This document shows, in pieces, positions 8,451 through 51,381 of a stretch of 64,000 nt of DNA. Position 1 is the stretch's first letter. Each line of letters opens with the position of its first letter. The DNA comes from Limnochordia bacterium (GTDB lineage: Bacteria; Bacillota; Limnochordia; Darwinibacteriales; Darwinibacteriaceae), in assembly GCA_050952265.1 (NCBI GenBank), contig JBMNKP010000005.1, forward strand, positions 130,974 to 194,973. Direction: 5' to 3'. The position numbers and the translations under genes are program-made. Under the pieces are notes generated by a model. It did no database searches, was not told the origin of the DNA, and saw nothing but the letters and a program-made list of their open reading frames with translations.

Positions 8451-8747
8451 TCAGGGCTGTTCTTTCAGCTCCTTGAGTTTCCGAACGATCTCCTTCAGAG
8501 AAAGCCTCCCCCGGCAGAAAACCAGTCCGTCGATGACCACAACGGGCAGGAGGCCATCTTGCACCCACCCACCCTGTTTCGCCTCGCTGCTTTCGGGGCT
8601 GACCAAGCGCACAGTAACTTCGGAGCCAAAGCGCCTGCGCACAGCTCGCTTCAGGTAGACTACTGCCTCTCCCAAAGGCAGGTTTTTCCTTCAACCGCCG
8701 CAGGACCGCAGAAGCCCTCGGGAATGACCGCAGACAATCACTTCCAT
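8451..8747 (-). CDS. candidate selenoprotein: small thioredoxin-fold (Rdx/SelW- or glutaredoxin-like) protein with an in-frame UGA at 8691-8693 in a C-G-G-U motif
   Basis: ATG at 8745-8747 follows a perfect SD GGAGGTG with a 6-nt spacer. Translation MEVIVCGHSRGLLRSCGG-UGA-RKNLPLGEAVVYLKRAVRRRF...PVVVIDGLVFCRGRLSLKEIVRKLKELKEQP continues in frame into the tool ORF 8451-8675, which the tool starts at a TTG. A 6-bp hairpin CUGCCU-UUGGGAG-AGGCAG begins 11 nt after the UGA. The C-terminus shows the Rdx/DUF836 pattern P-V-x-x-I-D-G-x-x-F. Confidence 0.5.
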
Positions 8748-8787
8748 CCACCGCACCTCCGCCGCTTATCTGGGTCCAGTATATGCC

Positions 8788-10161
8788 TCACGCCCGTCCC
8801 AAGACCCTCCACCAGAAGCCGCGTCTCTGTGCTTTCTCCTTGCTCTCCAGCTCCTCCACTCTGCTCCGCAGCCGAGCCAGTTCCCGTTCAAGCTGGGTGC
8901 GGCTGGCTTCCGCCTGGGCCCTGCCTTCCTCCTGCGCCTGCCGCAGGGTCAGACAGCGGCGTTCCAAGCGCTCGAGCCGCTCCGTGAGAGGAGCCAGATC
9001 AACTGGTTTCGGAGGCTTCCATTCCTGCCGCCACCGCTTGACCTCGTTCCTCAGCTCTACCCATTCCTGCCCCCACTTTCTGGCCTCGGAGCGGAGCTCT
9101 TCCCACTCCTGGAGGGTGCGGAAGGCCTGTTCCATGAAGGCCGCTTGAGCTTGCGCCTCGCGCTTTCTTTCTTCCGCCGACATCTGAGGCTGAACCTGGT
9201 CCCCATCGGGCGTCTTTTCGTCCTGTTCCAGCTCCTCAGGTGTGGTGCTCTCTACCGCCCGAGGTTCGGCCGGTTGCGCTGGCTCCGCCTCCTGTGCGGT
9301 TTGGTCTTTGTCTTTGTAGACCGGCAGCAGGAGCCCGCCCACAACCTTCCAGGTGTATGTAAGACTGTCCCGCTCTGCCTGCCGGCGCCGATCCCACTGG
9401 CCCAAGGGAACCTCGTAGAACTCGCCCCCCTCGCTCCAGAGGACTCTCCACTGCCCTTCGGTGCAGGCAAAGCCCACGAGCCCGGCATGGTGCTGGCCTG
9501 TGGAGAGGCTGATCGGGGCGGTCCACTGTTCCGCCTTGCTCTTCGCTTTCAAAACGGTCTTCTCCGACTCTTCCAGCCAGAACAGGTGAAGCTGTTCCGC
9601 CGCCAAGAACTGTGGATGGGAACAGCAGGCATCGGAGAAGGCGATGGCCCCGCTCCACAGCCTCGTCTCAAGGTCATACACCCTGTAGAGCAGGTTGCGA
9701 TCCTTGTGGTCCAGGTAGGCCAGGTGCAGATGATTGCCCCCTTGCCAGGCTGCGCTGTACGCCCACGCTTCACCGAAAACGTTTGCTGTGACAGTCTGAG
9801 GTTTGCCCCATCCCCCGGCAGACTGCTGGTGGCGCAGGAGCCTGCCGCGCCCCGCGGTCTGGGGCACAAAGTAGAAGAGATGGGCTCTGCCCAAACCGTC
9901 GCTGATCAGACGCCCTCCGCCGGCATAGGGCTCGCCCAAGTCAAGACGCTCACTCTGCAGCTCGTCCTCGCCCCTGAACAGCCAGGCGTGATCTGCGCTG
10001 AGAAAGGCGGCGATGTAGATCAGGGAGCCGGAAATAGTCACCGCAGCATCCTGAACGTTTTCTCGTAACACCCGCGGCCCGCCCAGCATAGAGTGGATCA
10101 TCAAAGACCCACCCCGCAGCTCGACACCGCTGAACTTGGGATGGTCCAGTTCGATGCGCAA
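8788..10161 (-). CDS. hypothetical cytoplasmic protein: N-terminal repeat (beta-propeller-like, HLFW/HLAY/RVLW blades) domain plus C-terminal Trp-containing coiled coil
   Basis: 457 aa with no signal peptide. The C-terminal 150 aa are strongly heptad-like and E/R/Q/W-rich. The stop lies 40 nt upstream of the candidate selenoprotein start. Confidence 0.55.
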   Translation of the reverse strand: MRIELDHPKFSGVELRGGSLMIHSMLGGPRVLRENVQDAAVTISGSLIYIAAFLSADHAWLFRGEDELQSERLDLGEPYAGGGRLISDGLGRAHLFYFVPQTAGRGRLLRHQQSAGGWGKPQTVTANVFGEAWAYSAAWQGGNHLHLAYLDHKDRNLLYRVYDLETRLWSGAIAFSDACCSHPQFLAAEQLHLFWLEESEKTVLKAKSKAEQWTAPISLSTGQHHAGLVGFACTEGQWRVLWSEGGEFYEVPLGQWDRRRQAERDSLTYTWKVVGGLLLPVYKDKDQTAQEAEPAQPAEPRAVESTTPEELEQDEKTPDGDQVQPQMSAEERKREAQAQAAFMEQAFRTLQEWEELRSEARKWGQEWVELRNEVKRWRQEWKPPKPVDLAPLTERLERLERRCLTLRQAQEEGRAQAEASRTQLERELARLRSRVEELESKEKAQRRGFWWRVLGRA

Positions 10162-16958: not shown

Positions 16959-17743
16959 TACATAGTAAAACGATGATTGCCGATGGTGACTTTCACAGGA
17001 CGGCTGTGCATGAACCGGTCAGATGTTTTGCGGGGATTGAAGAAGAAGAGTGCACCGTTTGTGGGATCATGCCCGTTCAGCGCCTCGAGGGCGGCCCTGC
17101 GGGCTGTTTCGTTGGGGGCTGTGTAGAAGCTGCCATTTTGAATGGGTTGGAAGGCATTGGCTTGGAAGAGCACGCCGCGCAGAGTATTGGGGAATTGATG
17201 GCTGAGAAGTCTGTTGATGATCACGGCACCAACAGCGACTTGGCCCAAGTACGGCTCGCCGCGGGCCTCCGCGTGGATCATCTGGGCCAGCCATTCTACT
17301 TCCTGATTGGTCAGGCGTACTCCAGCGGGGTAGTATTTCATGTGATCTACCGGAACCAAGAGGCGCTGTCCCACGCGGATCAGGTCTGACTTCATCCGGT
17401 TGAGTTCTTTCAGTTCCTCTACGCTGATCCCATAAGTAGCGGCGACCCAGTAGAGACTGTCTCCCTCCTGAACCGTGTAGAGAGTCACCCCTTTGTACTT
17501 GGTGACGGCAGAGGGAACCTGCGGCTTGTGGACCTCCCTGAGCACCTGGTTGAACTCTGTCAGATCGCCTAGATCGGTTAAGGGGGTGTCAACCAAAGCG
17601 ATCGCGCCCATAGGCTCGGCAGGCTCTGCGCCCCGTTCCAAGGGCTCTCCATGGGCAAGCAGGGCGCACACGAGAACTACCGCCGCAGCCGCCCAGCTAA
17701 AGCGCACAGAGTTTCGCTTCGGATCAGGCGCTTGACCGATCAC
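16958..17743 (-). CDS. LysM-domain cell-wall hydrolase, SleB/Hydrolase_2 family (spore cortex-lytic-like)
   Basis: 261 aa. Signal/TM, LysM (YTVQEGDSLYWVAATYGISVEELKELN), then a SleB-like catalytic domain (AQMIHAEARGEPYLGQVAVGAVIINR). GTG start with SD gaaagaggggg. Confidence 0.8.
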   Translation of the reverse strand: MIGQAPDPKRNSVRFSWAAAAVVLVCALLAHGEPLERGAEPAEPMGAIALVDTPLTDLGDLTEFNQVLREVHKPQVPSAVTKYKGVTLYTVQEGDSLYWVAATYGISVEELKELNRMKSDLIRVGQRLLVPVDHMKYYPAGVRLTNQEVEWLAQMIHAEARGEPYLGQVAVGAVIINRLLSHQFPNTLRGVLFQANAFQPIQNGSFYTAPNETARRAALEALNGHDPTNGALFFFNPRKTSDRFMHSRPVKVTIGNHRFTM

Positions 17744-17882
17744 CTTAGGCCCCCTCTTTCCAAGAATTAGTTGTAATCAAAATTATAACTGAACGGGGAC
17801 GAGCTGTCAATTTCGAGGTAGGCGGCCCGCTTGCCAGGCCCCAAAGGACATAATATACTAGATATGCTGAGGAGGTGGCTGG

Positions 17883-18953
17883 ATGAGCCTTTTACGCGAG
17901 CTCCTGACGCCAAAGCGCATCATAGTCTTCGTCATTCTTGCCGTTCTTCTGATCTTCTTCTCACGGCAGCTGGGTACGGTCGTACTCCCCTTCCTCATCG
18001 CCGCCAGCTGTGCTGTGATCCTCGAACCATTGGTGAATTTCCTCGTACGCCGACTGCGTTTTCCACGCTCTATCGCCGCGTTAGCCACCTTGATAGCCGT
18101 TGGCGGTTTGGCCCTGTACGGCATCATCCTGATCATCGGCCAGCTGGTAGGCCAGCTCATAGACCTGGCTTCGCTCCTGCCGGTCTACCGCGAGACCATC
18201 ACGGACATGACGGAAGACCTGCTGTCCCACGTGCAGGCACTCAACGAAAGCCTCCCTGCCATCGTCAGCGTGAACATCCAGAACAGTGTTCAGGACTTCC
18301 TTGTTACCCTGGAAAACAGCACCAAAGACTTGATCAACCGTGTCCTGGAAATGTTCTCAGGAATGCCTTCATTCGTCCTGGTCACCATCATCACCCTGGT
18401 GGCCACCTACTTCATCTCGCGGGATAAGGACTTGATCATCGATACCTTCATGCAGTTTGTTCCTCCCTCTTCCCGCGAAAAAGCCCTGGAGTTCCGGGAG
18501 AAGCTCAGTGTCGACCTGTTCGGCTATGTCAAAGGCCGCTTCCTGATGCTCCTCATCTCCATGGCCATCACCGCGATAGGCCTGGTCCTCATCGGCACGC
18601 GTTATTGGGTCCTGCTGGCCATCGTCATCGGGATCATCGATCAGATCCCCGTGATCGGCCCCGGGATCGTCTTCACTCCGTGGGTAGCCATGTGCGTGAT
18701 TGCGGGCGACATCGATCGAGCTGTCTACCTCACCCTGCTCTACTTCGTGCTCTTTGCTGTAAGGAACTTTGCTGAGCCGAAGATTATCGGCGACTCCGTC
18801 GGCCTGCACCCGCTGATCATGCTTCTGGCCATGTACGGCGGTGTCGTGTTCTTCGGCGTGGTTGGGCTCATCCTCGGACCGGTGCTGGCCATCATCATCC
18901 GGGCTACGACAGCAGCGGGGTTGATCAAGTTTCCGCCCTACTCGGACAAGTAA
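17883..18953 (+). CDS. ytvI: sporulation integral membrane protein YtvI (AI-2E transporter family)
   Basis: 356 aa with 8 TM helices and typical YtvI/AI-2E family architecture. SD gaggaggtg. Confidence 0.8.
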   Translation: MSLLRELLTPKRIIVFVILAVLLIFFSRQLGTVVLPFLIAASCAVILEPLVNFLVRRLRFPRSIAALATLIAVGGLALYGIILIIGQLVGQLIDLASLLPVYRETITDMTEDLLSHVQALNESLPAIVSVNIQNSVQDFLVTLENSTKDLINRVLEMFSGMPSFVLVTIITLVATYFISRDKDLIIDTFMQFVPPSSREKALEFREKLSVDLFGYVKGRFLMLLISMAITAIGLVLIGTRYWVLLAIVIGIIDQIPVIGPGIVFTPWVAMCVIAGDIDRAVYLTLLYFVLFAVRNFAEPKIIGDSVGLHPLIMLLAMYGGVVFFGVVGLILGPVLAIIIRATTAAGLIKFPPYSDK

Positions 18954-18957
18954 CTCT

Positions 18958-18989
18958 AAACCCCTTACATAAAAGGGGTTTTCTTTTTG
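18958..18989 (+). terminator. rho-independent terminator
   Basis: AACCCCTTacataAAAGGGGTT followed by TTCTTTTTG. Confidence 0.85.
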
Positions 18990-19027
18990 AACACTAAGGG
19001 TAGCCACTGCGGACAAGGAGTGCATCC

Positions 19028-19642
19028 ATGTTCAGCTTGCCCTTAAGTGTTGCCCTGCTCACTCTCCTCACGGTCCTGCTCTTATTGGGTTTGGGACAGA
19101 GAGTTCTGGACCGCATGCGCCTTACCGACGCGGAAGCGGTGATCATCCTCCTGCTCATGATCGGCGGCCACTTCCTGCCCACGATTTCCCTGACTCCCCG
19201 CATCGCCTTAAACTTGGGCGGTCTTATCCCCTTTGGAGTAGGCATCTACCTGCTTGTTACTACTTCCACCCAGGAAAGACTCAGAGCGGTGGGAGTCACT
19301 CTCGTTACGGCAGCCCTCATCTGGCTCAGCGATAAGTTCCTGCCGCTTCAGCCCGGCCTTCTCGATCCCGTTTTCAGCGGAGGGATTTTCGCCGGACTGA
19401 CCGCCACCATCTGGGGCCGGTCCAGGCGCAGCGCCTTCACAGCGGGACTTCTAGGAGTGCTTCTAGTCGATGCCACCAGTATGCTCCAGCTCTGGCTGCA
19501 GGGTTTGGAGGAACGGATCACCTTGGGCAGCGGCGGTCTCTTTTCCAGCGTTGTGCTGAGCTCCTTTTTAGCGGTCGCCCTGACTGAAGTCATCGGCGAA
19601 GTACGGGAGGCAATCCACCTGGGAGGAAACCGCGATGGCTAA
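19028..19642 (+). CDS. DUF1614 membrane protein
   Basis: 204 aa, polytopic. SD aaggag. Overlaps the spoIIP start. Confidence 0.6.
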   Translation: MFSLPLSVALLTLLTVLLLLGLGQRVLDRMRLTDAEAVIILLLMIGGHFLPTISLTPRIALNLGGLIPFGVGIYLLVTTSTQERLRAVGVTLVTAALIWLSDKFLPLQPGLLDPVFSGGIFAGLTATIWGRSRRSAFTAGLLGVLLVDATSMLQLWLQGLEERITLGSGGLFSSVVLSSFLAVALTEVIGEVREAIHLGGNRDG

Positions 19643-20717
19643 ACGGCTTCTGCTGATTGCTGCGGCTTTCTGCATTCTGGCCTTCGCACACCAACCGGCT
19701 GGTGCCGATGATCTGTGGGATGAACTTCTGCCCTCCGGTCAGTATTACACCCTCCTTGACCCAGAAGGCGAGGTCCTTGTGGAAACCGGGCGGCGGATCT
19801 ACCTCGAGGATCAATACCTGACCAGCGATAACCGGCTCTATGAAGTCGTAGAAGTGGATGAGGAAAAGAACACGGCCCGCACTGAGCTTGTGGGCGAGAT
19901 CGAACTCAGGGTTACTCCCTGGTCCGAGCTCCGGCGGGAGTTGGGGCTGGCAGTCATCGAGGCGGCCGATCCCGAAACCAAGGGATCCATCGCGATCTAC
20001 CACACCCACAATGCTGAAAGCTACGTTCCCACCGATGGAACCGACTCCATCTACGGCAAAGGCGGGATCCACCATGTCGGGGGCGCGTTCGCTGAAGCCC
20101 TCCGCGAGCAAGGCATCACCGTACACTACTCCGAAACGCTGCATCTGCCCCACGACCGAGGAGCTTACAGGCGCTCCAGAGAAACGGTCCTAGAACTGAT
20201 AGCCAAAGAACCCGACGCCATTTTCGATGTGCACCGCGATGCCGCTCCGAGCAGCGCCTATGCCATCCAGCTTGAGGACCAGTGGATGACCAGCATCCAG
20301 TTTGTGGTAGGACGCCAGAATCAGAACCTGGGCGTGAACAGAAAGTATGCCGAGTCCTTGAAGAAACTGGCCGATGACCTCTATCCCGGCCTGGTCAAAG
20401 GTATCTTCTTCGGAAGGGGCAACTACAACCAGGACCTGAGCCCCCTCAGCCTGCTGCTCGAAGTTGGGGCCCATACCAACAGCAGGGGAGCGGCCGAGCG
20501 CGGAGCCTCCCTCTTCGCCGAAGTCGTGGACTACTACTTCTACGGGCCTGAGGCCGAAGCTGGAAGGCGCAGCCAAGGATCTGCCGCCTGGCGAAGCGTC
20601 TTCGGCCTGATCATCTTCGCAGCGGCCGGCACGGCTGCTTTCTACGTGGTCAACGCGGGAGGGTTTGCTGCGGCATTGGAGCGTCTCAAGGCAGCCTTTC
20701 GCCTGCGCAACCGCTAG
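19635..20717 (+). CDS. spoIIP: stage II sporulation protein P
   Basis: 360 aa with an N-terminal anchor and a SpoIIP amidase-like domain (AIYHTHNAESYVP..., FDVHRDA). Confidence 0.85.
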   Translation: MAKRLLLIAAAFCILAFAHQPAGADDLWDELLPSGQYYTLLDPEGEVLVETGRRIYLEDQYLTSDNRLYEVVEVDEEKNTARTELVGEIELRVTPWSELRRELGLAVIEAADPETKGSIAIYHTHNAESYVPTDGTDSIYGKGGIHHVGGAFAEALREQGITVHYSETLHLPHDRGAYRRSRETVLELIAKEPDAIFDVHRDAAPSSAYAIQLEDQWMTSIQFVVGRQNQNLGVNRKYAESLKKLADDLYPGLVKGIFFGRGNYNQDLSPLSLLLEVGAHTNSRGAAERGASLFAEVVDYYFYGPEAEAGRRSQGSAAWRSVFGLIIFAAAGTAAFYVVNAGGFAAALERLKAAFRLRNR

Positions 20718-20806
20718 GCCCGCACCGCACCGATCTTCACCTCCACGCAGGAAATCGCCTTCAAAAAGGCGAAGTCAGCAGGCAAATGCTGAACGGAGTG
20801 ATGGCA

Positions 20807-21895
20807 GTGAAGATCTTGCTGAGAGCCGTGATCGCGGTCGTGTTACTTGCTGTAGTGCTCGGTGGAGGCCTAGTCCTTTATCTCACCGTTACAGAGTACA
20901 AGCCGGACGCGGTCACACCTGTCCAGGTCCACCAGCATCAGGGTGAAACCGTGAACGTACAGGATGAGCTGACCATCACCAGCTTCAACATCGGTTATGC
21001 AGCCTTAGATAGCGATGTGGACTTCTTTATGGACGGCGGCAGCATGTCCAGGGGCTTGAGCAGAGAACGCGTCGAGCAGAATCTGGCCAAGATCATCAAC
21101 TTCCTTAACTCCACCGGCTCTGATCTCTACGTGCTCCAGGAGGTCGATGAAGAGAGCACGAGGAGTTACGGCGTCAACCAGAAGGAGCGCATCGCTCAAG
21201 CGCTGCCTGATTATGTCTACAGCTATGCTTTGAACTATCGAGTTGGGTGGGTTCCTGTCCCCCTGCTGCAGCCCATGGGCAGGGTTGCCAGCGGCCTCCA
21301 GACCCTTTCCCGTTTTACGGTACATGAGTCCACCCGCTACTCATTGGCCAGTGAGGAATCGTGGCCAACGAGCATCGCCCACCTCAAGCGCTGTCTGCTG
21401 GAAAGCAGGATCCCGGTGAGCAACGGTCGAGAGCTGGTCATTGCCAACATCCATCTCTCAGCCTACGATGCGGGAGGAAAGCTGCGCGATGCGCAGCTGG
21501 CCTTTTTGGAAGAATACGTACGCTCAGAAGCCGCCAACGGCAACTACGTGATCATCGGCGGAGACTGGAATCACCTCTTGGCCAGCAATCCCCAGGAGTT
21601 TAGGGCGCGCTTTTCAGCTAACTGGCCTTCTTGGCTTCAGCTCCTGCCTGAGGGCGTCTTATCCGAGTTCGTCTGGGCATATGACGAGAACATTCCTTCT
21701 GTGAGGAATCTCGACGCCTCCTACGACCCGCAGCGCACGTTTACCTGTACGATCGACGGCTTCCTGGTCTCTCCCAATGTGGAGGTCGTCAACGTGACCG
21801 GACACGATCTGGGGTTTGAGTTCAGCGATCACCATCCTGTTACCATGACTTTCAGACTCATAGACGACACGGAAACGGACGAGGAAGCAGAATAA
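20807..21895 (+). CDS. endonuclease/exonuclease/phosphatase (EEP) family membrane-anchored protein
   Basis: N-terminal TM helix. EEP motifs TSFNIGYA, LQEVD, GGDWNH and SDHHPV. Probable GTG start at 20807 (SD ggagtg); the tool ORF begins at 20786. Confidence 0.75.
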   Translation: MKILLRAVIAVVLLAVVLGGGLVLYLTVTEYKPDAVTPVQVHQHQGETVNVQDELTITSFNIGYAALDSDVDFFMDGGSMSRGLSRERVEQNLAKIINFLNSTGSDLYVLQEVDEESTRSYGVNQKERIAQALPDYVYSYALNYRVGWVPVPLLQPMGRVASGLQTLSRFTVHESTRYSLASEESWPTSIAHLKRCLLESRIPVSNGRELVIANIHLSAYDAGGKLRDAQLAFLEEYVRSEAANGNYVIIGGDWNHLLASNPQEFRARFSANWPSWLQLLPEGVLSEFVWAYDENIPSVRNLDASYDPQRTFTCTIDGFLVSPNVEVVNVTGHDLGFEFSDHHPVTMTFRLIDDTETDEEAE

Positions 21896-21909
21896 CACGG
21901 ATCAGCCTG

Positions 21910-21949
21910 AAAACGCCTCAGGGAGACGAAGACTTCTTGAGGCGTTTTT
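21910..21949. terminator. bidirectional terminator shared by the EEP gene (+) and the rRNA/tRNA-Asn operon (-)
   Basis: AAAACGCCTCAagggagacgaagacttcTTGAGGCGTTTTT. Confidence 0.85.
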
Positions 21950-21991
21950 CTTCTGGGCATGAAAAAAGACACCTTACGGTGTCGAGAAAAA

Positions 21992-22066
<75 letters not shown>

Positions 22067-22122
22067 GCGACCTCCAATGCGACACCGGGCAAACCAGCAG
22101 CACCGCATAGGAGTAAATTAGT

Positions 22123-22238
22123 TCTTGGCAGCTAGCTACTCTCCCACCACGAGATGTGGCAGTACCATCGCCGCTGAAGGGCTTAACTGCTGTGTTCGGA
22201 ATGGGAACAGGTGTCTCCCCTTCGCTATCGCCACCAAG
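22123..22238 (-). rRNA. rrf: 5S ribosomal RNA
   Basis: Reverse complement reads TCTTGGTGGCGATAGCGAAGGGG...CCGATGGTACTG...GCTGCCAAGA. Confidence 0.9.
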
Positions 22239-22279
22239 AAAATACCTTCAAAACTGCACAGCGTTGTCTCTTTTGGCTA

Positions 22280-25259
<2,980 letters not shown>

Positions 25260-25504
25260 TTCTTTTGGTCTTCCATTTTTTGAGACATCCTAAGAGTCAT
25301 CACGAACGCTCAGCTGCGCTTCACGTTCGTGTCGCAATCCCCCTCACACCTTGCGGTGCAGGCGAAATTGTGTTTTAACCCTTAAATCACGCTGTGCAGT
25401 TTTCAAGGTACGATCGCCTTGAACTACCAAACTTCCATCTTGAGTTTTCCATCCTGCGCTTGAGGAGAATAAGCCGGTCTGTGCTCTCCTTCTTTTTGGG
25501 TATT

Positions 25505-27046
<1,542 letters not shown>

Positions 27047-41153: not shown

Positions 41154-42824
41154 CTAGAACAGCCCTGTGATCCTGCCTTCCGCGTCAATGTCCACATTCT
41201 CAGCCGCGGGCTTGGCAGGCAGGCCGGGCATGGTCATGATCTCCCCAGCCAAGCAGACTAGGAAACCAGCCCCCAGGGAGGGACGCACATCGGTGATGGT
41301 CAGCTTCCAGCCGGTGGGCCTGCCCTTGAGCTTGGGATTGTCCGACAGGGAATGCTGTGTCTTGGCAACGCAGACGGGCAGATCCCCATAGCCCAGCCTG
41401 GTGAGGTCCCGGATCGAGCTGTCCGCCTTCGGGGCGTAGACCACGCTGTCGGCCCCGTAGATCTCTCTAGCCAGGATCTCCAGCTTCGCTTTGATGGGCA
41501 GCTTCCAGTCGTAAAGCGGCTTGAACTGCGTTGGTTCGCTCTCCAGCACCTCCAGCACTGCCTTGGCCAGCTCCTCGCCGCCGGCACCGCCCTTGGCCAC
41601 CACCTGCGAGATAGCGCTCCGCACACCCAGTTCAGCGCAGTGCTGGCGCACCAGTTCCAGCTCCTCGGGATCGTCGGTGGGGAAGTTGTTGATCGCCACC
41701 ACGATGGGCAGCCCGAACTTGCGCAGGTTCTCCACATGTTTGTCCAGGTTGGCCAGGCCCCTTCGCAGAGCCTCCAGGTTGGTCACGGCCACCTCTTCTT
41801 TGGGCACTCCGCCGTGCATGTTAAGGGCCCGCACCGAAACCACGAGCACTGCCACATCTGGCGTCAGACCGGAGTAGCCGTGGACGATATCGAAGAACTT
41901 CTCGGCACCAAGGTCCGAAGCGAAGCCGCCTTCCGTCACCACATAATCCGCAAGCTTGAGGGCGAGGCGGGTCGCGATGATGCTGTTATTCCCGTGCGCG
42001 ATATTGGCGAAGGGCCCACCGTGGATGAAGGCAGGTTGGCCTTCGAGAGTCTGTACCAGGTTCGGTTTTATGGCATCCTTCATGATCACGGCGATGGCTC
42101 CCTGCGCCTTGAGATCCCGGGCATAGACGGGCTTGCGGTCGTAGGTGTACGCCACCAGCATGCGCCCGACCCGCTCTTTGAGATCCTGCAGATCCTCGGC
42201 GAGGCAGAGTATGGCCATGAGCTCGGAGGCCACGGAAATATCAAAGCCGGCTTCCCGCACATATCCATCACCGATCCCGCCCAGGCCGATAACTATGTTC
42301 CTCAGCTGGCGGTCGTTCATGTCCATGACCCGGCGCAGAACGATGCGCTTTGGGTCGATGTTCAGGGCATTCCCCTGGGCAATGTGGTTGTCCAGCATGG
42401 CAGCGAGCAGGTTATGGGCAGTCGTCACTGCGTGGATATCGCCAGTGAAGTGGAGGTTGATATCCTCCATGGGCACCACCTGCGAATAGCCACCACCGGC
42501 CGCGCCGCCTTTTATCCCGAAAGTCGGGCCGAGGGACGGCTCCCGCAGGCAGGCGGCAACGTTTTTCCCCAGCCTGCCCAAGGCCTGGGTCAGGCCAATG
42601 GTGGTCACGGTCTTGCCTTCTCCAGCAGGAGTAGCAGTGATGGCGGTAGTGTAGATGAGTTTGCCGTTAGGGCGATCCTGCACTCTCCCGTAGACCTTAG
42701 TGTCCACCTTGGCCTTGTACTTCCCGTAGTGCTCCAGATCATCTTCTGTTAAACCCAGTTTGGCAGCTATTTCCGAAATCGGGCGCAGCTTGGCCTGCTG
42801 GGCAATCTGAATATCACTAAGCAT
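41154..42824 (-). CDS. fhs: formate--tetrahydrofolate ligase
   Basis: 556 aa, full-length FTHFS. Confidence 0.95.
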   Translation of the reverse strand: MLSDIQIAQQAKLRPISEIAAKLGLTEDDLEHYGKYKAKVDTKVYGRVQDRPNGKLIYTTAITATPAGEGKTVTTIGLTQALGRLGKNVAACLREPSLGPTFGIKGGAAGGGYSQVVPMEDINLHFTGDIHAVTTAHNLLAAMLDNHIAQGNALNIDPKRIVLRRVMDMNDRQLRNIVIGLGGIGDGYVREAGFDISVASELMAILCLAEDLQDLKERVGRMLVAYTYDRKPVYARDLKAQGAIAVIMKDAIKPNLVQTLEGQPAFIHGGPFANIAHGNNSIIATRLALKLADYVVTEGGFASDLGAEKFFDIVHGYSGLTPDVAVLVVSVRALNMHGGVPKEEVAVTNLEALRRGLANLDKHVENLRKFGLPIVVAINNFPTDDPEELELVRQHCAELGVRSAISQVVAKGGAGGEELAKAVLEVLESEPTQFKPLYDWKLPIKAKLEILAREIYGADSVVYAPKADSSIRDLTRLGYGDLPVCVAKTQHSLSDNPKLKGRPTGWKLTITDVRPSLGAGFLVCLAGEIMTMPGLPAKPAAENVDIDAEGRITGLF

Positions 42825-42849
42825 TTGTCTCCCTCCTCGACTTTGGTAA

Positions 42850-44211
42850 CTAAACCGAGTGCAAGCCGCATCCCAGTGCGCTGAGAACGGCTTCCTTAAT
42901 CGACTCGGATACCGTGGGATGGGGATAGACCACCTCGGCCCACTTCTCCAGGGTCAGCCCCTGCTCGAGGGCGAGCGCTGCCCCGGAGATGAGCTCTGTG
43001 GCCTGCGGTCCAATGATATGTACACCGAGCACCCTGCCGTCAGGCGCGGCCACGACCTTGACAAAGCCGGAGTTCTCCCTGGCGATCATGGCCCGGCCGT
43101 TACCCTTGAGCGAAAACTTAGCGGAAATCACCTGGCCATGCCGTTCCCTTGCTTCTGCTTCCGTCAGGCCCACCGAAGCGATTTCCGGCTTGGTGTATAC
43201 ACACGCGGGGACAAACCACTCGCGGCGCGCCGGCAGGCCGAACATGTTGTTCACAGCCGCCCAGCCTTCCTCAAAGGCAAGGTGGGCCAGCTGCACTCCA
43301 CCGATGATATCACCCGCTGCATACACGTTCGGCACGGAGGTCTGGAAAGCCTCGTTAACCCTAACGCAGCCCTTGGCGTCCAGCTCACCAGTGAAACCAG
43401 CGGGCAGCACCGGCCTGCGGCCTACAGCGACCAGGACCAAGTCCGCCTCAAGCTGAGACATGTTCCCGTTCTGCTCCAGGGATACCTGGGCACGATCACC
43501 GCGTTCGATGCCGACTACCTTCGCCCCGGTGAACACCTTGACTTTTCTCTTCTTAAACTCGCGGGCCAAGGCCTGGCTGATCTCCCCATCTTCCATGGGG
43601 AGCAGGCGGGGCATGAGCTCGACGATGGTCACCTGAACTCCGTACTCGGAAAAGATGGTGGCAAATTCGCAGCCGATCACCCCACCGCCGATGATCACCA
43701 GGGACTCGGGGAGCGCGGTACGCGCGAGCAGCTGGTCACTGTTCACAACCAGCTCGCCATCGACCTCCAGACCCCTAAGCTGCAGGGGCTCGGTTCCAGT
43801 AGCTACGAGCACATTGGCCGGTTGGAACATTTCAGCGCCCACCTGCACTTCGCCTGATGACAGAAAGCGGGCTTCGGCCTCCAGCACCGTGATCTGCCGC
43901 TTCCTCAAAAGAAACTGCAGGCCGCCCACGAGGTTCTCAACGATCTGGTCCTTGCTGCGCACCACCTGGCCATAGTCCAGACTCTTGACGTCAACCTCGA
44001 CGCCGTGCACAGCGGCCGAGCTAAGGCCGGCATAGAAATGGGCGCTTTCCAACAGGGCTTTGGTGGGGATACAGCCGCGGTTCAGGCAGGTCCCTCCCAG
44101 CCTCTCCCGCTCGGCCACGACCACGGTCTTGCCCAGCTGGCTGGCGCGGATGGCTGCGGAGTAGCCCGCCGGTCCCCCGCCGATGACTAGTAAATCGATC
44201 TGCTGGGTCAA
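42850..44211 (-). CDS. lpd: dihydrolipoyl dehydrogenase
   Basis: 453 aa: FAD (GGGPAGY), redox disulfide GGTCLNRGCIPTK, and NAD and dimerization domains. Confidence 0.9.
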   Translation of the reverse strand: MTQQIDLLVIGGGPAGYSAAIRASQLGKTVVVAERERLGGTCLNRGCIPTKALLESAHFYAGLSSAAVHGVEVDVKSLDYGQVVRSKDQIVENLVGGLQFLLRKRQITVLEAEARFLSSGEVQVGAEMFQPANVLVATGTEPLQLRGLEVDGELVVNSDQLLARTALPESLVIIGGGVIGCEFATIFSEYGVQVTIVELMPRLLPMEDGEISQALAREFKKRKVKVFTGAKVVGIERGDRAQVSLEQNGNMSQLEADLVLVAVGRRPVLPAGFTGELDAKGCVRVNEAFQTSVPNVYAAGDIIGGVQLAHLAFEEGWAAVNNMFGLPARREWFVPACVYTKPEIASVGLTEAEARERHGQVISAKFSLKGNGRAMIARENSGFVKVVAAPDGRVLGVHIIGPQATELISGAALALEQGLTLEKWAEVVYPHPTVSESIKEAVLSALGCGLHSV

Positions 44212-44227
44212 TCTACCGCCTCCTCAC

Positions 44228-44878
44228 CTAGTTCGCGTTTTTCGGAACGTAATAGGCCAAACGCTGGAGCTCAAGCGATAGATCAACCGTCGCTACCTGG
44301 ACTGTTTCGGGAGTGATCAGCTTGACCGGCGCGTAGTTGAGGATACAGCGCACTCCAGCGCGAACAAAGCGGTTGGCCACGTCCTGAGCTGCGTCGGCAG
44401 GCACGGCTAGGATAACGACCTTGATCTGCTGTTCGGCCACTTTCTGCGGGACCTCTTCCAGCGATGAGATGGTGATCCCTTCCACTTCCCTGCCGACCTT
44501 AGCGGGATCGCTGTCAAACAGGGCAACCAGGCGGAGGTTGAAGCTGTCGGTATCGGCATAGCGCTTGAGGTGGTAGCGTGCCAAGGCTTCACCCAAACTG
44601 CCCACACCAACTAACGCCACCGCCATCTCTTGTTCCAGGTTGAGAATTTTGCGAAGCTCATTGCGGAGAAAACCCACCTCGTAGCCAACGCCCTGCTTCC
44701 CAAACTCACCAAACCATGCCAAGTCTTTGCGCACCAGAGCCGGGCCAACACCGGCCTTAATGCCCAATTCCTGAGAAGAGATTAGGGCGCCTTCGTCTTC
44801 GTTGGCCAGCTCGTCCAGGACGCGGAGATAAAGCGGCAGGCGCCTGATCACTGCATCCGAGATTTTGTTCCAGCGCAT
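44228..44878 (-). CDS. rex: redox-sensing transcriptional repressor Rex
   Basis: Winged-helix N-terminus plus a Rossmann NADH-sensing domain. ATG at 44878 after SD gggagg. Confidence 0.9.
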   Translation of the reverse strand: MRWNKISDAVIRRLPLYLRVLDELANEDEGALISSQELGIKAGVGPALVRKDLAWFGEFGKQGVGYEVGFLRNELRKILNLEQEMAVALVGVGSLGEALARYHLKRYADTDSFNLRLVALFDSDPAKVGREVEGITISSLEEVPQKVAEQQIKVVILAVPADAAQDVANRFVRAGVRCILNYAPVKLITPETVQVATVDLSLELQRLAYYVPKNAN

Positions 44879-44896
44879 GGACACACCTCCCTGATT

Positions 44897-45376
44897 TCAT
44901 TTATGGTATCGTTCATTGTTGAGGATGGTAAACGCCCGGTAGATCTGCTCCAGCAGTATCAGGCGCATGAGCTGGTGGGGAAAAGTGAACTTGGAGAACG
45001 AGAGCACCAAGTCCGCTCGCTTTAGAACCCGCTCATCCAGCCCCAAAGAACCTCCGATCACAAACACCAGCTGGCTGGACCCGGCAAGGGCTGCGCGCTG
45101 GATCTCTTCTGCCAGCTCCTCCGAAGACAGGGCTCGTCCACCCCTGTCCAGCGCCACCAAGAAGCTTCGCGGCTTGATTTCCTTCAGAATGCGCTCACCT
45201 TCGCGCCGCAGAATCTCCTCCACCTCTTTGGCACTCAAGGGCTCGCTGAAGCTCTCTGCCCTCAGCTCCACGATCTCAAGGCGCTCGTAACGCCCCAGGC
45301 GCTTGCTGTATTCTTCGATGCCTTCCACCAGGTACTGCTCTTTCAGCTTTCCCACAGCCAAAACCCTGATCTGCAC
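44897..45376 (-). CDS. rlmH: 23S rRNA (pseudouridine1915-N3)-methyltransferase RlmH
   Basis: 159 aa SPOUT fold. Confidence 0.9.
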   Translation of the reverse strand: MQIRVLAVGKLKEQYLVEGIEEYSKRLGRYERLEIVELRAESFSEPLSAKEVEEILRREGERILKEIKPRSFLVALDRGGRALSSEELAEEIQRAALAGSSQLVFVIGGSLGLDERVLKRADLVLSFSKFTFPHQLMRLILLEQIYRAFTILNNERYHK

Positions 45377-45388
45377 CCATCAACCCCC

Positions 45389-45556
45389 CTAGACAACCAA
45401 GTACTTGGGGGGACGATCACAAAAAGTGCAGCGCGTGGGCGCGGTCCAATCGGTGAGCGATACCTCCTCGATTTCGTAGAGATCGGGAGGCATCTCGTAC
45501 ACCTCAACAAACTCATCGATGGCCTGTTCCAGGTGTTCTGTGCACACTACATACAT
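45389..45556 (-). CDS. CxxH/CxxC mini-protein (BA_5709/DUF1450-like)
   Basis: 55 aa: MYVVCTEHLEQAIDEFVEVYEMPPDLYEIEEVSLTDWTAPTRCTFCDRPPKYLVV. SD aagggag. Below the tool's size cutoff. Confidence 0.55.
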   Translation of the reverse strand: MYVVCTEHLEQAIDEFVEVYEMPPDLYEIEEVSLTDWTAPTRCTFCDRPPKYLVV

Positions 45557-45614
45557 GTTCTGACTCCCTTACCAGAAAGTGCCTAAGCCGTAATAGTATG
45601 ATAACACACAACTA

Positions 45615-45672
45615 GAAAAAAAAGAAGCAGACTGTGCCCAAGTCCGCTTGATCTGAGCGGCACAAGCGCAGC
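45615..45672 (-). terminator. htrA terminator (compound hairpin plus T8)
   Basis: Minus strand: GC-rich nested hairpin followed by TTTTTTTT. Confidence 0.6.
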
Positions 45673-45685
45673 TGCTTTCATGTAG

Positions 45686-46750
45686 TTACAGGGTTACCTC
45701 CACCTGCTGCTGGGATGGTCCACGGTAGTATGAGAGCTGCAGTTTGCCGCCAAAGCCTGCCTGCTGGACAGCATCGCGCAGCTCGCGCATCCCGGCGATC
45801 TCCTGGCCGTTGACGGCAGTGATCACATCTCCCTCGGCCAGGCCTGCGGCCGCTGCGGGAGTATCGGGCAGCACCCTCGTGATAAACGCCCCCCGGTTCA
45901 CCGCCAGGTCCAAACCCACCTGTTCCTCAATGCTCTTGGCCAGCGCAGGAGTAAGCGAACCACCCAAGACGCCGAGGCGCAGCGGCCTGCCGTGGGAGAT
46001 GATCTGATCGCCCACAGCTTTTGCCGTGGAGGAAGGGATGGCGAAGCCGATCCCCTGCGCCTGTTCGATGATAGCCGTAGTCACCCCGATCACCTGGCCC
46101 TGGTAGTCGATGAGGGGACCGCCGGAGTTGCCAGGATTGATGGCAGCATCAGTCTGGATCATCCCCTCGAGATAGCGGTTCTCCCTGGGATCGACAAGCA
46201 GATCGCGGTTCACTGCGCTGACCACGCCTGTGGTCACGGTGTTATCCTGCCCGAGGGGGTTGCCAATCGCAATTACGCCCTGCCCCACCCGAAGCTCGTC
46301 GGAATCGGCAAAGGAGGCCACGGGCAGCCCCTCGGCTTCCACTTTCACCACAGCCAGGTCAGTCAGGGCATCCCCACCCACTACCTTGCCGGTAAAGGTG
46401 CGTCCGTCGGCCAGCTGCACAAGTATCTCATCAGCCCCAGCTACCACGTGGTTGTTCGTGAGGATGTAGCCGTCCTCCCTGTAGATCACGCCAGAGCCGA
46501 TTCCCTGCCTTTTTTCCAGCTGCTGAAAAAAGAACTGGTCTACCAAGACTTCCCTGGTTGTCTCGATCTTGACAACTGCGGGGCCGACCTTCTGCACCAC
46601 CTGCACTACGGGCTCCTCCCAGTTACCCCGCGGTTCTTGAGACTCAGCGGGGGTGTCGCCGAGGGGAGCCTCAACAGGGGAAAAGACCGACCAGAGCAGA
46701 AACCCCGCCAACACCAGCAGAGCAAGGCCCATGAGTGAGCGCCATTTCAT
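45686..46750 (-). CDS. HtrA/DegP-family serine protease with PDZ domain
   Basis: 354 aa with an N-terminal TM helix, the trypsin-like catalytic triad (TNNHV, D, GNSGGPL), and a PDZ domain. Confidence 0.85.
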   Translation of the reverse strand: MKWRSLMGLALLVLAGFLLWSVFSPVEAPLGDTPAESQEPRGNWEEPVVQVVQKVGPAVVKIETTREVLVDQFFFQQLEKRQGIGSGVIYREDGYILTNNHVVAGADEILVQLADGRTFTGKVVGGDALTDLAVVKVEAEGLPVASFADSDELRVGQGVIAIGNPLGQDNTVTTGVVSAVNRDLLVDPRENRYLEGMIQTDAAINPGNSGGPLIDYQGQVIGVTTAIIEQAQGIGFAIPSSTAKAVGDQIISHGRPLRLGVLGGSLTPALAKSIEEQVGLDLAVNRGAFITRVLPDTPAAAAGLAEGDVITAVNGQEIAGMRELRDAVQQAGFGGKLQLSYYRGPSQQQVEVTL

Positions 46751-46807
46751 CGTCCCTCATCCTCCTTTTGAGCTGCCTGCCGGTAGTATAACCCCGTGGA
46801 TCTGCTT

Positions 46808-47572
46808 TTATGGTGCGATGATCGGGCGGCCCGTTAGGGGATGGTGCAGCGGTGGAACGGTGACACGGAAGACCTCGGCGATCAGTTCTGGTTTGAACAC
46901 TTCCTCAGGAGGACCTTCTTCTCTGAGCCTGCCTTCAGCTAAGACAAAGACATGGTCGCAGAAGCTGGCGGCCAGGTTGAGATCGTGGAGCACTGCTGCC
47001 ACAGTCACTCCTTCCCGGCTCTTGCGCTGGAGCAGGCGGCAGGTGTTGATCTGGTGCTCCAGATCCAGGTGCGTTGTGGGCTCATCGAGGAGCAGCACCT
47101 TGGTCTCCTGGGCAAAGGCCCGGGCGATGGTCACCCGCTGCCTTTCGCCGCCGCTCAAGCTGCTTGCCAACCGCCCTGCCAAGTGGGCGATGCCGGTGAT
47201 CTCCATACTGGCACGGACGATCTCCCGATCCCGCGCGCTCGGCGTCCCCAAGCGGGAGTAAAACGGGGCGCGTCCCAGCATCACCATTTCTTCCACCGTG
47301 AAGGGGAAGTAATAAGAGCTTTGGGGTATGAGAGCTATTTCCCGGGCTAACCTGGCTAGGCTGAAGGTGCGCAGATCCTTCCCGTCCAGATAGACGGTGC
47401 CCTCCCGCGGCCTGATGAACCCGTCCAGCAGCTTAAGCAGAGTAGATTTTCCTGCCCCGTTTGGGCCTACCACTCCGTAGAAATGCCCCGGCTTCATACT
47501 GAGGCTCACTCCGTGCACTACCGGCTCCGCCCCATAGGCAAAAGTTACATTTTCCAGTCGCATCTTATCCAT
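46808..47572 (-). CDS. iron/cobalamin-type ABC transporter ATP-binding protein
   Basis: 254 aa with Walker A GPNGAGKST, signature LSGGERQ, and Walker B. Confidence 0.85.
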   Translation of the reverse strand: MDKMRLENVTFAYGAEPVVHGVSLSMKPGHFYGVVGPNGAGKSTLLKLLDGFIRPREGTVYLDGKDLRTFSLARLAREIALIPQSSYYFPFTVEEMVMLGRAPFYSRLGTPSARDREIVRASMEITGIAHLAGRLASSLSGGERQRVTIARAFAQETKVLLLDEPTTHLDLEHQINTCRLLQRKSREGVTVAAVLHDLNLAASFCDHVFVLAEGRLREEGPPEEVFKPELIAEVFRVTVPPLHHPLTGRPIIAP

Positions 47573-49459: not shown

Positions 49460-49499
49460 AGTCGCTAGGGAGCACGAAAAACAGCACCCTCCTTTCCGC

Positions 49500-49700
49500 G
49501 AAGGTTGGTCCTGACGACTTCCGAACTGGCAGGTCTCCTGGCTCCCAAGTCATCGCGTATCCATTCCTTCCCCACAAACGTGAGTGGATCCCATGGAACG
49601 CTCCTTGAATACAGTGGCGGGACCGCGTGGTTTCTCGTTGCCGAGCCCAACTTCCCTATTCTCCGCCCTGCCCTGCTTGGACAGGCCGGCACCAGTTCAC
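49500..49700 (-). ncRNA. cobalamin (B12) riboswitch
   Basis: Minus strand has GGGAAGTTGG...CCCGCCACTGT...GCCAGGAGACCTGCC (B12 box) directly upstream of the ABC importer operon. Confidence 0.65.
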
Positions 49701-49796
49701 GAATTCAGTTGTCATCCTATGTATACTACACACTCAACCAATATCCTTCCCCACCTTTGGACATACTACGAAACGTCAAAGGAAAGGGGTCGGGCC

Positions 49797-51243: not shown

Positions 51244-51324
51244 CTCTGTCCTCCTCTCATTCGGCAGAGCCGTTAGTTGATCAGTTGGACAGCCTTTCGG
51301 CAAATCCTCCCCAACGCAGTAGAC

Positions 51325-51352: not shown

Positions 51353-51381
51353 GCAAAAGTCTTTGGCATTGGTTAAAGAGA

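What the first reader, a model, noticed from the sequence alone, without database searches (positions are those of the whole stretch)
8451..8790. Unannotated candidate selenoprotein: SD+ATG, in-frame UGA in a C-G-G-U motif, SECIS-like hairpin, thioredoxin-fold C-terminus
The six-frame track only reports a 74-aa ORF that starts at a TTG (8675). In the same frame, 72 nt upstream, an ATG (8745-8747) sits 6 nt after a perfect GGAGGTG Shine-Dalgarno. It lies 40 nt after the stop of the upstream gene. Translation from this ATG gives MEVIVCGHSRGLLRSCGG, then a single UGA (8691-8693), then RKNLPLGEAVVYLKRAVRRRF...PVVVIDGLVFCRGRLSLKEIVRKLKELKEQP. Reading UGA as selenocysteine creates a C-G-G-U redox motif, the classic CxxU of Sec oxidoreductases. 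A 6-bp hairpin with a G-rich 7-nt loop (CUGCCU UUGGGAG AGGCAG) starts 11 nt after the UGA, which fits bacterial SECIS geometry. The C-terminal half matches the end of small thioredoxin-fold proteins (Rdx/SelW and DUF836 glutaredoxin-like: P-V-V-x-I-D-G-x-x-F...L..L). The alternative readings, an 18-aa leader peptide plus a TTG-initiated protein with a weak, distant SD, or a pseudogene, are less parsimonious.
Basis: partly seen in the sequence, partly recalled or inferred. Interest (0 to 1): 0.85.

Follow-up and report, generated by a model that had tools for sequence, protein, structure and literature searches.

The report
Uncatalogued thioredoxin-fold selenoprotein gene (CGGU)
A 98-codon gene that annotation pipelines cut short at an internal UGA is very probably a real selenocysteine-containing thioredoxin-fold protein. 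It is conserved in an abundant uncultured biogas-reactor lineage and is absent from current selenoprotein catalogues.

Summary
On the minus strand there is GGAGGTG (8760-8754), ATG (8747-8745), an in-frame TGA (8693-8691), a hairpin (8681-8663) and a stop (8453-8451).

I read the DNA of 15 distinct relatives from independent assemblies, 37-77% identical at the protein level. All keep the SD and start codon, x-V-x-V-[CYF]-G-x8-C-G-G, TGA, [RK]K[NSR][LM][PS]L[GE]EA and the rest of the ORF. The TGA never changes, while the neighbouring gene's stop varies between TGA, TAG and TAA.

Codons on both sides of the TGA vary synonymously, so both sides are translated. The exceptions are CCT-YTG-GGA-GAG, which form the hairpin core GCCUYU-GGR-AGAGGC. 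That core lies 11 nt after the UGA in every sequence and fits the published bacterial SECIS model.

TGA is an ordinary stop elsewhere in the window. The sequence after the UGA models as a thioredoxin fold lacking strand 1. Pfam and NCBIfam give only sub-threshold hits to DUF1462/YuzD, Thioredoxin_3 and ArsD.

No Cys-containing homologue was found. No known selenoprotein family model matches.

The lineage is Limnochordia DTU010, also called MBA03 or 'Ca. Darwinibacteriales'. One member species expresses glycine reductase, which implies Sec machinery. I could not inspect that machinery directly.

This is a new family of a known kind.

The parts
8451..8747 (-). Full coding sequence of the candidate selenoprotein (98 codons including Sec19; stop TGA 8453-8451)
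   Evidence: Translation. The same ORF architecture appears in 15 distinct relatives. Synonymous variation occurs on both sides of the TGA.
8754..8760 (-). Shine-Dalgarno GGAGGTG, 6 nt before the start codon
   Evidence: A GGAGG or GGGAGGG motif sits at the same place in relatives, whose start codons are ATG, TTG (L025) or GTG (L026, L029, L039).
8745..8747 (-). Start codon ATG
8691..8702 (-). C16-G17-G18-U19 motif (TGC GGC GGT TGA). The Sec codon TGA is 8693-8691.
   Evidence: C16, G17, G18 and the TGA are invariant in 14/14 aligned lineages. TGA is present in 15/15 inspected DNAs. The Cys and Gly codons vary synonymously.
8663..8681 (-). SECIS-like hairpin CUGCCUUU-GGG-AGAGGCAG. The conserved core GCCUUUGGGAGAGGC is 8679-8665 and the loop GGG is 8673-8671, 17 nt after the UGA.
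   Evidence: Fold (-9.0 kcal/mol). The six inner pairs are paired in 84/84 cells. Codons CCT, GGA and GAG are invariant, while the other 45 of 48 conserved degenerate codon columns vary. The hairpin meets the bSECIS model criteria quoted.
8544..8546 (-). Pro68 codon, invariant. Candidate cis-proline preceding strand beta3 of the thioredoxin fold.
   Evidence: Invariant in alignment A5. It aligns with the conserved Pro of MJ0307 thioredoxin and of the AhpF N-terminal domain in sub-threshold HMM alignments. Its geometry was not tested.
8778..8785 (-). Conserved -10-like element CATATACT in the 40-nt intergenic spacer, 30 nt before the ATG
   Evidence: CATAT[AGT][CA]T is present 20-33 nt upstream of the start in 11 lineages. 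The sigma-70 consensus scan finds no full promoter. The promoter role is inferred, not shown.

Best explanation
The region 8747-8451 (minus strand) is one gene for a small (about 98 aa) cytoplasmic thioredoxin-fold protein. Its active-site motif is Cys16-Gly-Gly-Sec19. Translation starts at the ATG behind the strong SD. At UGA19, the hairpin whose conserved core begins 11 nt downstream (GG-containing triloop 17 nt from the UGA) acts as a bacterial SECIS. It recruits SelB-GTP-Sec-tRNA(Sec), so selenocysteine is inserted and termination is avoided. The finished protein most likely works as a thiol/selenol oxidoreductase that cycles through a Cys16-Sec19 selenenylsulfide, as CxxU thioredoxin-fold selenoproteins are thought to do. 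Its closest sequence and fold neighbours are the YuzD/DUF1462, MTH895-type thioredoxin and ArsD branches. Shown here: the gene architecture, its conservation, protein-level selection on both sides of the UGA, nucleotide-level constraint on the hairpin, and a thioredoxin-like fold for the part after the UGA. Inferred: that the inserted residue is Sec, that SelB reads the hairpin, and the redox function and its unknown substrate.
Against: No selA, selB, selD or tRNA-Sec was seen directly. None lies in the window or in the fetched flanks, and whole genomes could not be scanned. No Cys-containing homologue was found, although most bacterial selenoprotein families have them. The hairpin shows no double-sided covariation, so the case for structure rests on conservation and wobble-compatible changes. 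In several lineages the strict 6-bp core alone scores -7.4 or -6.3 kcal/mol, just short of the model's -7.5 cut-off. No Rfam family matches. The full-length fold could not be predicted because the tool refuses U-to-C sequences. The partial model has only moderate confidence (pLDDT 68), and Foldseek found nothing significant.
Confidence: 0.85

Rival explanations
1. There are two separate products. An 18-aa leader peptide ends at the UGA, and an independent protein of about 70-79 aa starts downstream (TTG 8675 in the window), possibly coupled by termination and reinitiation.
For: This is how every annotation pipeline called the gene. An AGGA lies just after the TGA in most lineages.
Against: No downstream start is conserved. 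L25 is TTG in 3 of the 11 codon-aligned lineages and CTG in the other 8. Gene callers picked L23, L25, V29 or L32 in different lineages. Residues 20-24 lie upstream of all those starts yet are conserved through synonymous changes. The AGGA is replaced by CGAA, CGTA or AGAA in four lineages. A leader's stop codon would be expected to drift among TGA, TAA and TAG as the neighbour's does, but it is TGA in 15 of 15. The post-UGA fragment lacks strand 1 and the redox motif of its fold.
Confidence: 0.05
2. The UGA is read through without selenocysteine. A near-cognate tRNA inserts Trp, Cys or Arg, perhaps stimulated by the hairpin.
For: The Sec machinery was not inspected directly. The base after the UGA is A or C, contexts that I recall as comparatively leaky for termination.
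Against: If any standard residue served, a sense codon (TGC, TGT or TGG) would be a single step away and far more efficient, yet none of the 15 lineages has one. The position is the second redox residue of a CxxC-type motif, where Sec is a known natural replacement. The hairpin's position and GG loop match the SelB-dependent model. A carrier species expresses glycine reductase, so Sec decoding should be available.
Confidence: 0.05
3. The gene is a pseudogene, or the TGA is a sequencing or assembly error.
For: One relative (L027, GCA_001509945.1) reads SCGGAEEKNVPL with no stop at that position.
Against: That assembly is full of G7/G8 and A7 homopolymer runs. Its neighbouring genes are fragmented and the same ORF is frameshifted at its C-terminus. 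Removing 2 G and 1 A restores CGG-TGA-RKN. All the other assemblies (JGI, ENA, NCBI and Logan, from different samples) agree on the TGA, and both halves show purifying selection.
Confidence: 0.01
4. This rival concerns function only. The protein is a selenoprotein, but it acts as a metal or metalloid binding or transfer protein in the manner of ArsD, not as a disulfide/selenenylsulfide oxidoreductase.
For: ArsD gives weak hits (Pfam E=0.087; NCBIfam 0.13-0.14). A more distant relative (L028) has its own in-frame TGA in a C-G-U-G-G-G-C-G-P motif, lies beside an ArsD gene and hits ArsD at E=6.6e-4. Thiolate/selenolate pairs bind soft metals well (general chemistry).
Against: No arsenic or metal-resistance gene is a conserved neighbour of the core family. 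Its neighbours are a beta-propeller/coiled-coil protein, a CAP-domain protein and a DUF445 protein. The ArsD Cys12/13/18 triad is absent. DUF1462 and Thioredoxin_3 hits are at least as good as the ArsD hits.
Confidence: 0.2

Closest known systems
YuzD / DUF1462 (PF07315; structure 1XG8, S. aureus SA0798, which I place in DUF1462 from memory)
   Different: All scores are below the Pfam gathering threshold (best 18.6 vs 25 bits). This family has Sec in place of the second Cys. YuzD proteins are not listed as selenoproteins, and no paper in the library links them to selenocysteine.
Thioredoxin-fold CxxU selenoproteins, e.g. SelW-like/Rdx (PF10262)
   Different: There is no HMM match to PF10262 at E<=10. 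The lineage and the conserved residues are different.
[quoted passage not shown]
   Same: Both are small bacterial thioredoxin-like selenoproteins that NCBI annotation missed or truncated. Both were found through TGA-containing ORFs with a SECIS candidate (PMC5330540).
   Different: In those proteins Sec lies in a short N-terminal extension ahead of the thioredoxin domain, in CxU or UxC motifs, and Cys paralogues exist. Here Sec is the second residue of the CxxC-type motif, PF13192 hits are sub-threshold (best 16.4 vs 24.8 bits) and no Cys form was found.
Bacterial SECIS element (consensus model of Zhang and Gladyshev, as summarised in PMC13188914)
   Same: The hairpin lies in the coding region directly after the UGA. 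It has a small apical loop starting GG, a 6-8 bp upper stem and 17 nt between the UGA and the loop.
   Different: The sequence resembles no curated RNA family. The loop is only 3 nt (GGG or GGA). The core-only energy is marginal in some lineages.
ArsD metallochaperone (PF06953 / NF033727)
   Same: ArsD has a thioredoxin-like fold (my knowledge of the family, not tested here). Sequence hits are weak. A distant Sec-containing relative is adjacent to an ArsD gene.
   Different: All scores are far below the cut-offs. The Cys12/13/18 triad is absent. The core family has no ars gene context.

Membership tests
Bacterial selenoprotein gene (Sec-UGA plus bSECIS) | In-frame UGA conserved among orthologues, with protein-level conservation on both sides | tested here: met
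   TGA is present in 15/15 distinct lineages. Synonymous variation occurs in codons 2-18 and 20-23 and further downstream.
Bacterial selenoprotein gene (Sec-UGA plus bSECIS) | bSECIS model: apical loop of 3-9 nt and upper stem of 4-16 bp | tested here: met
   The loop is 3 nt and the stem 6-8 bp in all 14 sequences. Criteria are from PMC13188914.
Bacterial selenoprotein gene (Sec-UGA plus bSECIS) | G in one of the first two loop positions (usually GG or GU) | tested here: met
   The loop is GGG in 13 sequences and GGA in 1.
Bacterial selenoprotein gene (Sec-UGA plus bSECIS) | 16-37 nt between the UGA and the apical loop | tested here: met
   The spacing is 17 nt in 14/14 sequences.
Bacterial selenoprotein gene (Sec-UGA plus bSECIS) | Hairpin free energy <= -7.5 kcal/mol | tested here: inconclusive
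   The window scores -9.0 and the range is -6.3 to -10.9. Six lineages score -7.4 and one scores -6.3 when only perfect stems are counted.
Bacterial selenoprotein gene (Sec-UGA plus bSECIS) | Cys-containing homologues aligning with the Sec position (the usual supporting criterion) | tested here: not met
   An exhaustive profile search of 1.84 billion representatives and a word-indexed search of 5.8 billion proteins found only members truncated at the TGA. The single apparent exception is a frameshifted assembly.
Bacterial selenoprotein gene (Sec-UGA plus bSECIS) | selA, selB, selD and tRNA-Sec in the same genome | not testable with these tools
The only support is indirect: a carrier species (UBA3914 = DTU010 sp002391385) expressed the complete glycine reductase pathway.
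Bacterial selenoprotein gene (Sec-UGA plus bSECIS) | Selenium physically present in the protein | not testable with these tools
   This needs 75Se labelling or mass spectrometry.
DUF1462 / YuzD (PF07315) | Score at or above the Pfam gathering threshold (25 bits) | tested here: not met
   The best score is 18.6 bits (E=0.0023) and the window protein scores 14.5 bits.
Thioredoxin-like fold | beta-alpha-beta-alpha-beta-beta-alpha topology with the redox motif before helix 1 and a conserved Pro before strand 3 | tested here: inconclusive
   There is no hit at E<=10 for any of the 10 read-through sequences scanned.
Curated NCBIfam selenoprotein families (e.g. NF041239 CC/Se motif, NF040730 SaoT, NF047660 HUIPC) | HMM match at or above the family cut-off | tested here: not met
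   No selenoprotein model was hit by the 8 core-family sequences scanned. The only hits were weak ones to TIGR00412 and ArsD.
ArsD (PF06953 / NF033727) | HMM match above the cut-off, and the Cys12/Cys13/Cys18 metalloid-binding triad | tested here: not met
   The best hit is E=0.087 at 13.6 bits against a cut-off of 27. Only C16 and U19 are invariant.

The most novel reading that the evidence does not exclude
This is a previously uncatalogued, apparently Sec-obligate selenoprotein family with no Cys counterpart in about 15 billion public proteins. It would be the first selenocysteine form of the YuzD/DUF1462-like branch of the thioredoxin fold. It appears confined to Limnochordia DTU010/MBA03 ('Ca. 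Darwinibacteriales') and close relatives, a dominant lineage of anaerobic digesters. A second, more distant ArsD-like relative (L028) has its own in-frame UGA.
Probability: 0.7. Interest if true: 0.55.

Novelty: new member of a known kind. Interest (0 to 1): 0.55.

Why it matters
Every public annotation of this gene is truncated. The active-site half of the protein is therefore missing from protein databases, and the family is invisible to homology-based selenoprotein resources. The carriers (MBA03 / DTU010) are reported to be among the most abundant and active bacteria in biogas plants. Trace-element dosing, selenium included, is used as a process lever in such plants (my general knowledge). 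Knowing the full selenoproteome of this lineage therefore bears on that practice. A family in which Sec is never replaced by Cys is also a useful case for asking what selenium does that sulfur cannot. For the selenoprotein field the finding is incremental, since roughly 119 families are already listed. It is not a new principle.

Tried and rejected
The tool rejects U-to-C sequences and translations that contain a stop, so only the 79 residues after the UGA could be modelled.
(3) Rfam gave no SECIS-type or other match in the region, at gathering or at E-value thresholds.
(4) I looked for Sec machinery and other selenoproteins in the window. There is no tRNA-Sec. Pfam annotation of 50 ORFs shows no SelA, SelB, SelD, Grd or Fdh. 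A scan of TGA-interrupted frames with bSECIS-like hairpins in unannotated gaps returned only this gene as credible. tRNA scans of 14 related loci were empty.
(5) The terminator-like call on the plus strand at 8663-8681 is the reverse complement of the hairpin plus the AAAAA of the Arg-Lys-Asn codons. No plus-strand gene ends nearby, so I rejected it.
(6) P0022 looked like a non-Sec homologue. I rejected it as a homopolymer-error artefact.
(7) Covariation analysis of the hairpin found no double-sided changes, so it neither proves nor disproves pairing.
(8) Modelling the upstream neighbour gave a generic beta-propeller plus coiled coil, with no functional clue for the selenoprotein.
(9) Literature searches for DUF1462 or YuzD together with selenoprotein terms, and for MBA03 or Limnochordia together with selenium terms, found nothing that describes this gene.
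(10) The sigma-70 promoter scan found no full promoter upstream.
Full report
THE OBSERVATION. The upstream gene ends with TGA at 8790-8788. Forty nucleotides later, an ATG (8747-8745) follows GGAGGTG (8760-8754) at a 6-nt spacing. Eighteen sense codons (MEVIVCGHSRGLLRSCGG) lead to a single in-frame TGA (8693-8691). The same frame then continues for 79 codons (RKNLPLGEAVVYLKR...KEQP) to the stop at 8453-8451. The mechanical ORF list shows only the 74-aa piece starting at TTG 8675. The hairpin folds as CUGCCUUU-GGG-AGAGGCAG (8681-8663) at -9.0 kcal/mol. The part that turns out to be conserved starts after 11 nt.

RELATIVES. A protein search with the read-through sequence (U written as C) found 8 clusters. 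Every one was annotated as a fragment of 67-77 aa covering only the C-terminal 61-78% of the query. I fetched the DNA around them. I also scanned one genome per GTDB species (nine MAGs), JGI metagenomes and three more divergent members. This gave 15 distinct sequences, 37-77% identical to the window protein. All of them have an SD-like GGAGG or GGGAGGG, a start codon (ATG, TTG or GTG), x-V-x-V-[CYF]-G, eight variable residues, C-G-G, TGA, [RK]-K-[NSR]-[LM]-[PS]-L-[GE]-E-A and the rest of the ORF in the same frame. Gene order is conserved as well. An unknown protein of 425-457 aa lies upstream, a CAP-domain protein lies downstream, and a DUF445 protein sits on the other strand.

BOTH SIDES OF THE UGA ARE TRANSLATED. 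In a codon alignment of the 11 closer lineages, 48 codon columns are conserved at the amino-acid level (at least 9 of 11 sequences share the residue) and are degenerate. Forty-five of them show synonymous variation. These include E2, V3, I4, V5, C6, G7, S15, C16, G17 and G18 before the TGA, and R20, K21, N22 and L23 directly after it. R20 is AGG, CGA, CGT or AGA across the family. That pattern fits selection for arginine, not for a nucleotide motif. No downstream start codon is conserved. L25 is TTG in three lineages and CTG in eight. Gene callers chose L23, L25, V29 or L32 in different lineages. A leader peptide followed by a separately initiated protein therefore does not explain the data. 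The internal stop is TGA in 15 of 15 sequences, while the stop of the upstream gene changes among TGA, TAG and TAA in the same set. TGA is also an ordinary stop in this organism. It ends the ORFs for Rho, ArgRS, LysRS, FolD, CopA and many others. Genome-wide recoding is thus excluded.

THE HAIRPIN. The three conserved codons that never vary are P24 CCT, G26 GGA and E27 GAG, and L25 is limited to YTG. Together they spell GCCUYU-GGG-AGAGGC. The chance that all three invariant codons fall in that 4-codon block is 4/17296 = 2.3e-4 (computed). Across 14 sequences the six inner pairs are paired in 84 of 84 cells. The only stem changes are C-G to U-G. One comes from the Leu25 first position. The other comes from a Pro24-to-Ser replacement (CCU to UCU) seen in two sequences, L029 and L039. 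The only loop change is GGG to GGA (L030). There is no double-sided covariation, and the two outer pairs are not conserved. The argument for structure therefore rests on suppressed synonymous change and wobble-compatible substitutions, not on compensatory change. The bSECIS model is quoted in a 2026 review: loop of 3-9 nt, stem of 4-16 bp, G in the first two loop positions, 16-37 nt from UGA to loop, and energy <= -7.5 kcal/mol (PMC13188914). Measured against it, the element has a 3-nt loop starting GG, a 6-8 bp stem and exactly 17 nt of spacing in every sequence. Energies run from -6.3 to -10.9 kcal/mol, and the strict 6-bp core is marginal at -7.4 in six lineages. In the window, 99 of 2044 TGA triplets pass a simple version of the model, and 2 of 2044 do so at this spacing and energy. 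Rfam holds no matching family.

NO CYS FORM. An exhaustive HMMER search of 1.84 billion representative proteins used the post-UGA profile. A profile search of 5.8 billion proteins used the full-length alignment. Both returned only members truncated at the UGA. The one sequence that reads through (P0022, SCGGAEEKNVPL) comes from an assembly full of G7/G8 and A7 homopolymer runs. Its neighbouring genes are fragmented and the same ORF is frameshifted near its end. Removing two G and one A restores CGG-TGA-RKN.

WHO CARRIES IT, AND THE SEC MACHINERY. The genome hits are all uncultured 'Bacillota bacterium' MAGs from anaerobic digesters. One of them, UBA3914, is GTDB DTU010 sp002391385 in class Limnochordia (PMC10608942). 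A homologue of the upstream neighbour is named Candidatus Darwinibacter acetoxidans. The lineage is MBA03 / 'Ca. Darwinibacteriales' (PMC12663870). The window carries Fhs, FolD, a dihydrolipoyl-dehydrogenase-like gene and sporulation genes (SpoIIP, a SleB-like hydrolase). It has no tRNA-Sec, SelA, SelB, SelD or known selenoprotein. I could not scan whole genomes. The indirect evidence is as follows. Most Darwinibacteriaceae MAGs are reported to carry glycine reductase and formate dehydrogenase genes. The UBA3914 species expressed the complete glycine reductase pathway in a metaproteome. Glycine reductase proteins A and B are experimentally verified selenoproteins. A species that carries this gene (L020) should therefore have working Sec insertion. 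This step is inferred, not shown.

COMPARISON WITH WHAT IS KNOWN. The 2026 inventory of 119 prokaryotic selenoprotein families lists each family with a Pfam, NCBIfam, CDD, TIGRFAM or PANTHER identifier. In the rows I read, none is DUF1462 or ArsD. The NCBIfam models for the curated selenoprotein families do not match this protein. The nearest published case is the pair of Brachyspira Thioredoxin_3 selenoproteins, which have Sec in an N-terminal extension and do have Cys paralogues (PMC5330540). BSepDB is built by homology to known families, so it would not contain this one. No paper in the library links YuzD or DUF1462 with selenocysteine. I therefore treat this as a new family of a known kind, namely a thioredoxin-fold CxxU selenoprotein decoded through an in-frame bacterial SECIS. 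It is not a new mechanism.

MECHANISM AND CONFIDENCE. The most likely sequence of events is as follows. Translation starts at ATG 8747. SelB bound to the hairpin delivers Sec-tRNA(Sec) to UGA19. The product is a cytoplasmic redox protein of about 11 kDa that uses a Cys16-Sec19 selenenylsulfide. I put 0.85 on 'a real Sec-decoded gene'. Conditional on that, I put about 0.6-0.7 on 'oxidoreductase' against about 0.2 on an ArsD-like metal or metalloid handling role. The substrate is unknown. The conserved neighbours are a beta-propeller plus coiled-coil protein and a secreted CAP-domain protein, and they give no clear lead.

Noticed in passing
L028:540-905 (Logan SRR24035588 contig): A more distant relative (P0021, E=1.8e-4 to the family profile) also has an in-frame TGA. 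It reads MSSGSVVVIGYPVVQLQTGSGCG-TGA-GGGCGPVGSKEQ..., a C-G-U-G-G-G-C-G-P motif. A small GCCC-GGU-GGGC hairpin lies at the same 17-nt spacing. The gene sits directly upstream of an ArsD (PF06953) gene and itself hits ArsD at E=6.6e-4. It may be a second uncatalogued, ArsD-like selenoprotein.
   Followed up: partly
L027:3001-3237 (GCA_001509945.1, JMBV01000007.1): This is the only database entry that reads through the Sec position (SCGGAEEKNVPL). The assembly is full of G7/G8 and A7 homopolymer runs. Neighbouring genes (CdAMP_rec, DUF445) are split and the ORF is frameshifted at its C-terminus. The entry is an assembly artefact, not a non-Sec homologue.
   Followed up: yes
window 8778-8785 (minus strand): A conserved CATAT[AGT][CA]T element lies 20-33 nt upstream of the start codon in 11 lineages, directly after the upstream gene's stop. 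It looks like a -10 box without a recognisable -35 (none found by the sigma-70 scan). From memory it resembles the mother-cell sporulation sigma (E/K) -10 consensus CATA...T. The organism has SpoIIP and a SleB-like gene. I did not test this.
   Followed up: partly
window 8788-10161 (minus strand): The conserved upstream neighbour (457 aa) has no Pfam hit. Only 17 clusters match it at E<=1e-5, and the few that carry names are Ca. Darwinibacter acetoxidans or Firmicutes/Bacillota MAGs. It models confidently (pLDDT 86) as an N-terminal beta-propeller (Kelch, lectin and sialidase-like matches) followed by a disordered linker and a long coiled coil. Function unknown.
   Followed up: partly
L008:5940-6000 (ENA ERZ925067 contig): One contig of the L007/L009 species has S-C-G-S-TGA in place of S-C-G-G-TGA (GGC to AGC). 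This is a polymorphism, or an error, in an otherwise invariant motif residue.
   Followed up: no
L029:787-1059 and L039:1501-1773: Pro24 is replaced by Ser through CCU to UCU in two sequences. The change turns a C-G stem pair into U-G and so keeps the hairpin.
   Followed up: partly
window 8663-8681 (plus strand): The terminator scan calls a plus-strand hairpin followed by GTTTTTCCTT. This is the reverse complement of the SECIS-like hairpin and the AAAAA of the Arg-Lys-Asn codons. No plus-strand gene ends nearby, so it is a false positive.
   Followed up: yes
window 41157-51369 (minus strand): The window holds genes of the proposed reverse Wood-Ljungdahl / glycine-cleavage route of this lineage. 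They are formate-THF ligase (41157-42824), a dihydrolipoyl-dehydrogenase-like flavoprotein (42853-44211), Rex (44231-44884) and FolD (50404-51369). A cobalamin riboswitch (49511-49711) lies ahead of a BtuF/FecCD/ABC transporter (46811-49459).
   Followed up: no
window 16961-27046: Sporulation-related genes are present: a SleB-like cell-wall hydrolase with LysM (16961-17743, minus strand) and SpoIIP (19635-20714, plus strand). They lie next to a complete rRNA operon (5S 22123-22238, 23S 22283-25259, 16S 25511-27046, minus strand) and tRNA-Asn.
   Followed up: no
P0042, P0045, P0050: JGI annotates some of the truncated ORFs as 'disulfide oxidoreductase YuzD'. An automated pipeline has therefore already seen the YuzD likeness while missing the N-terminal 19 codons.
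   Followed up: no
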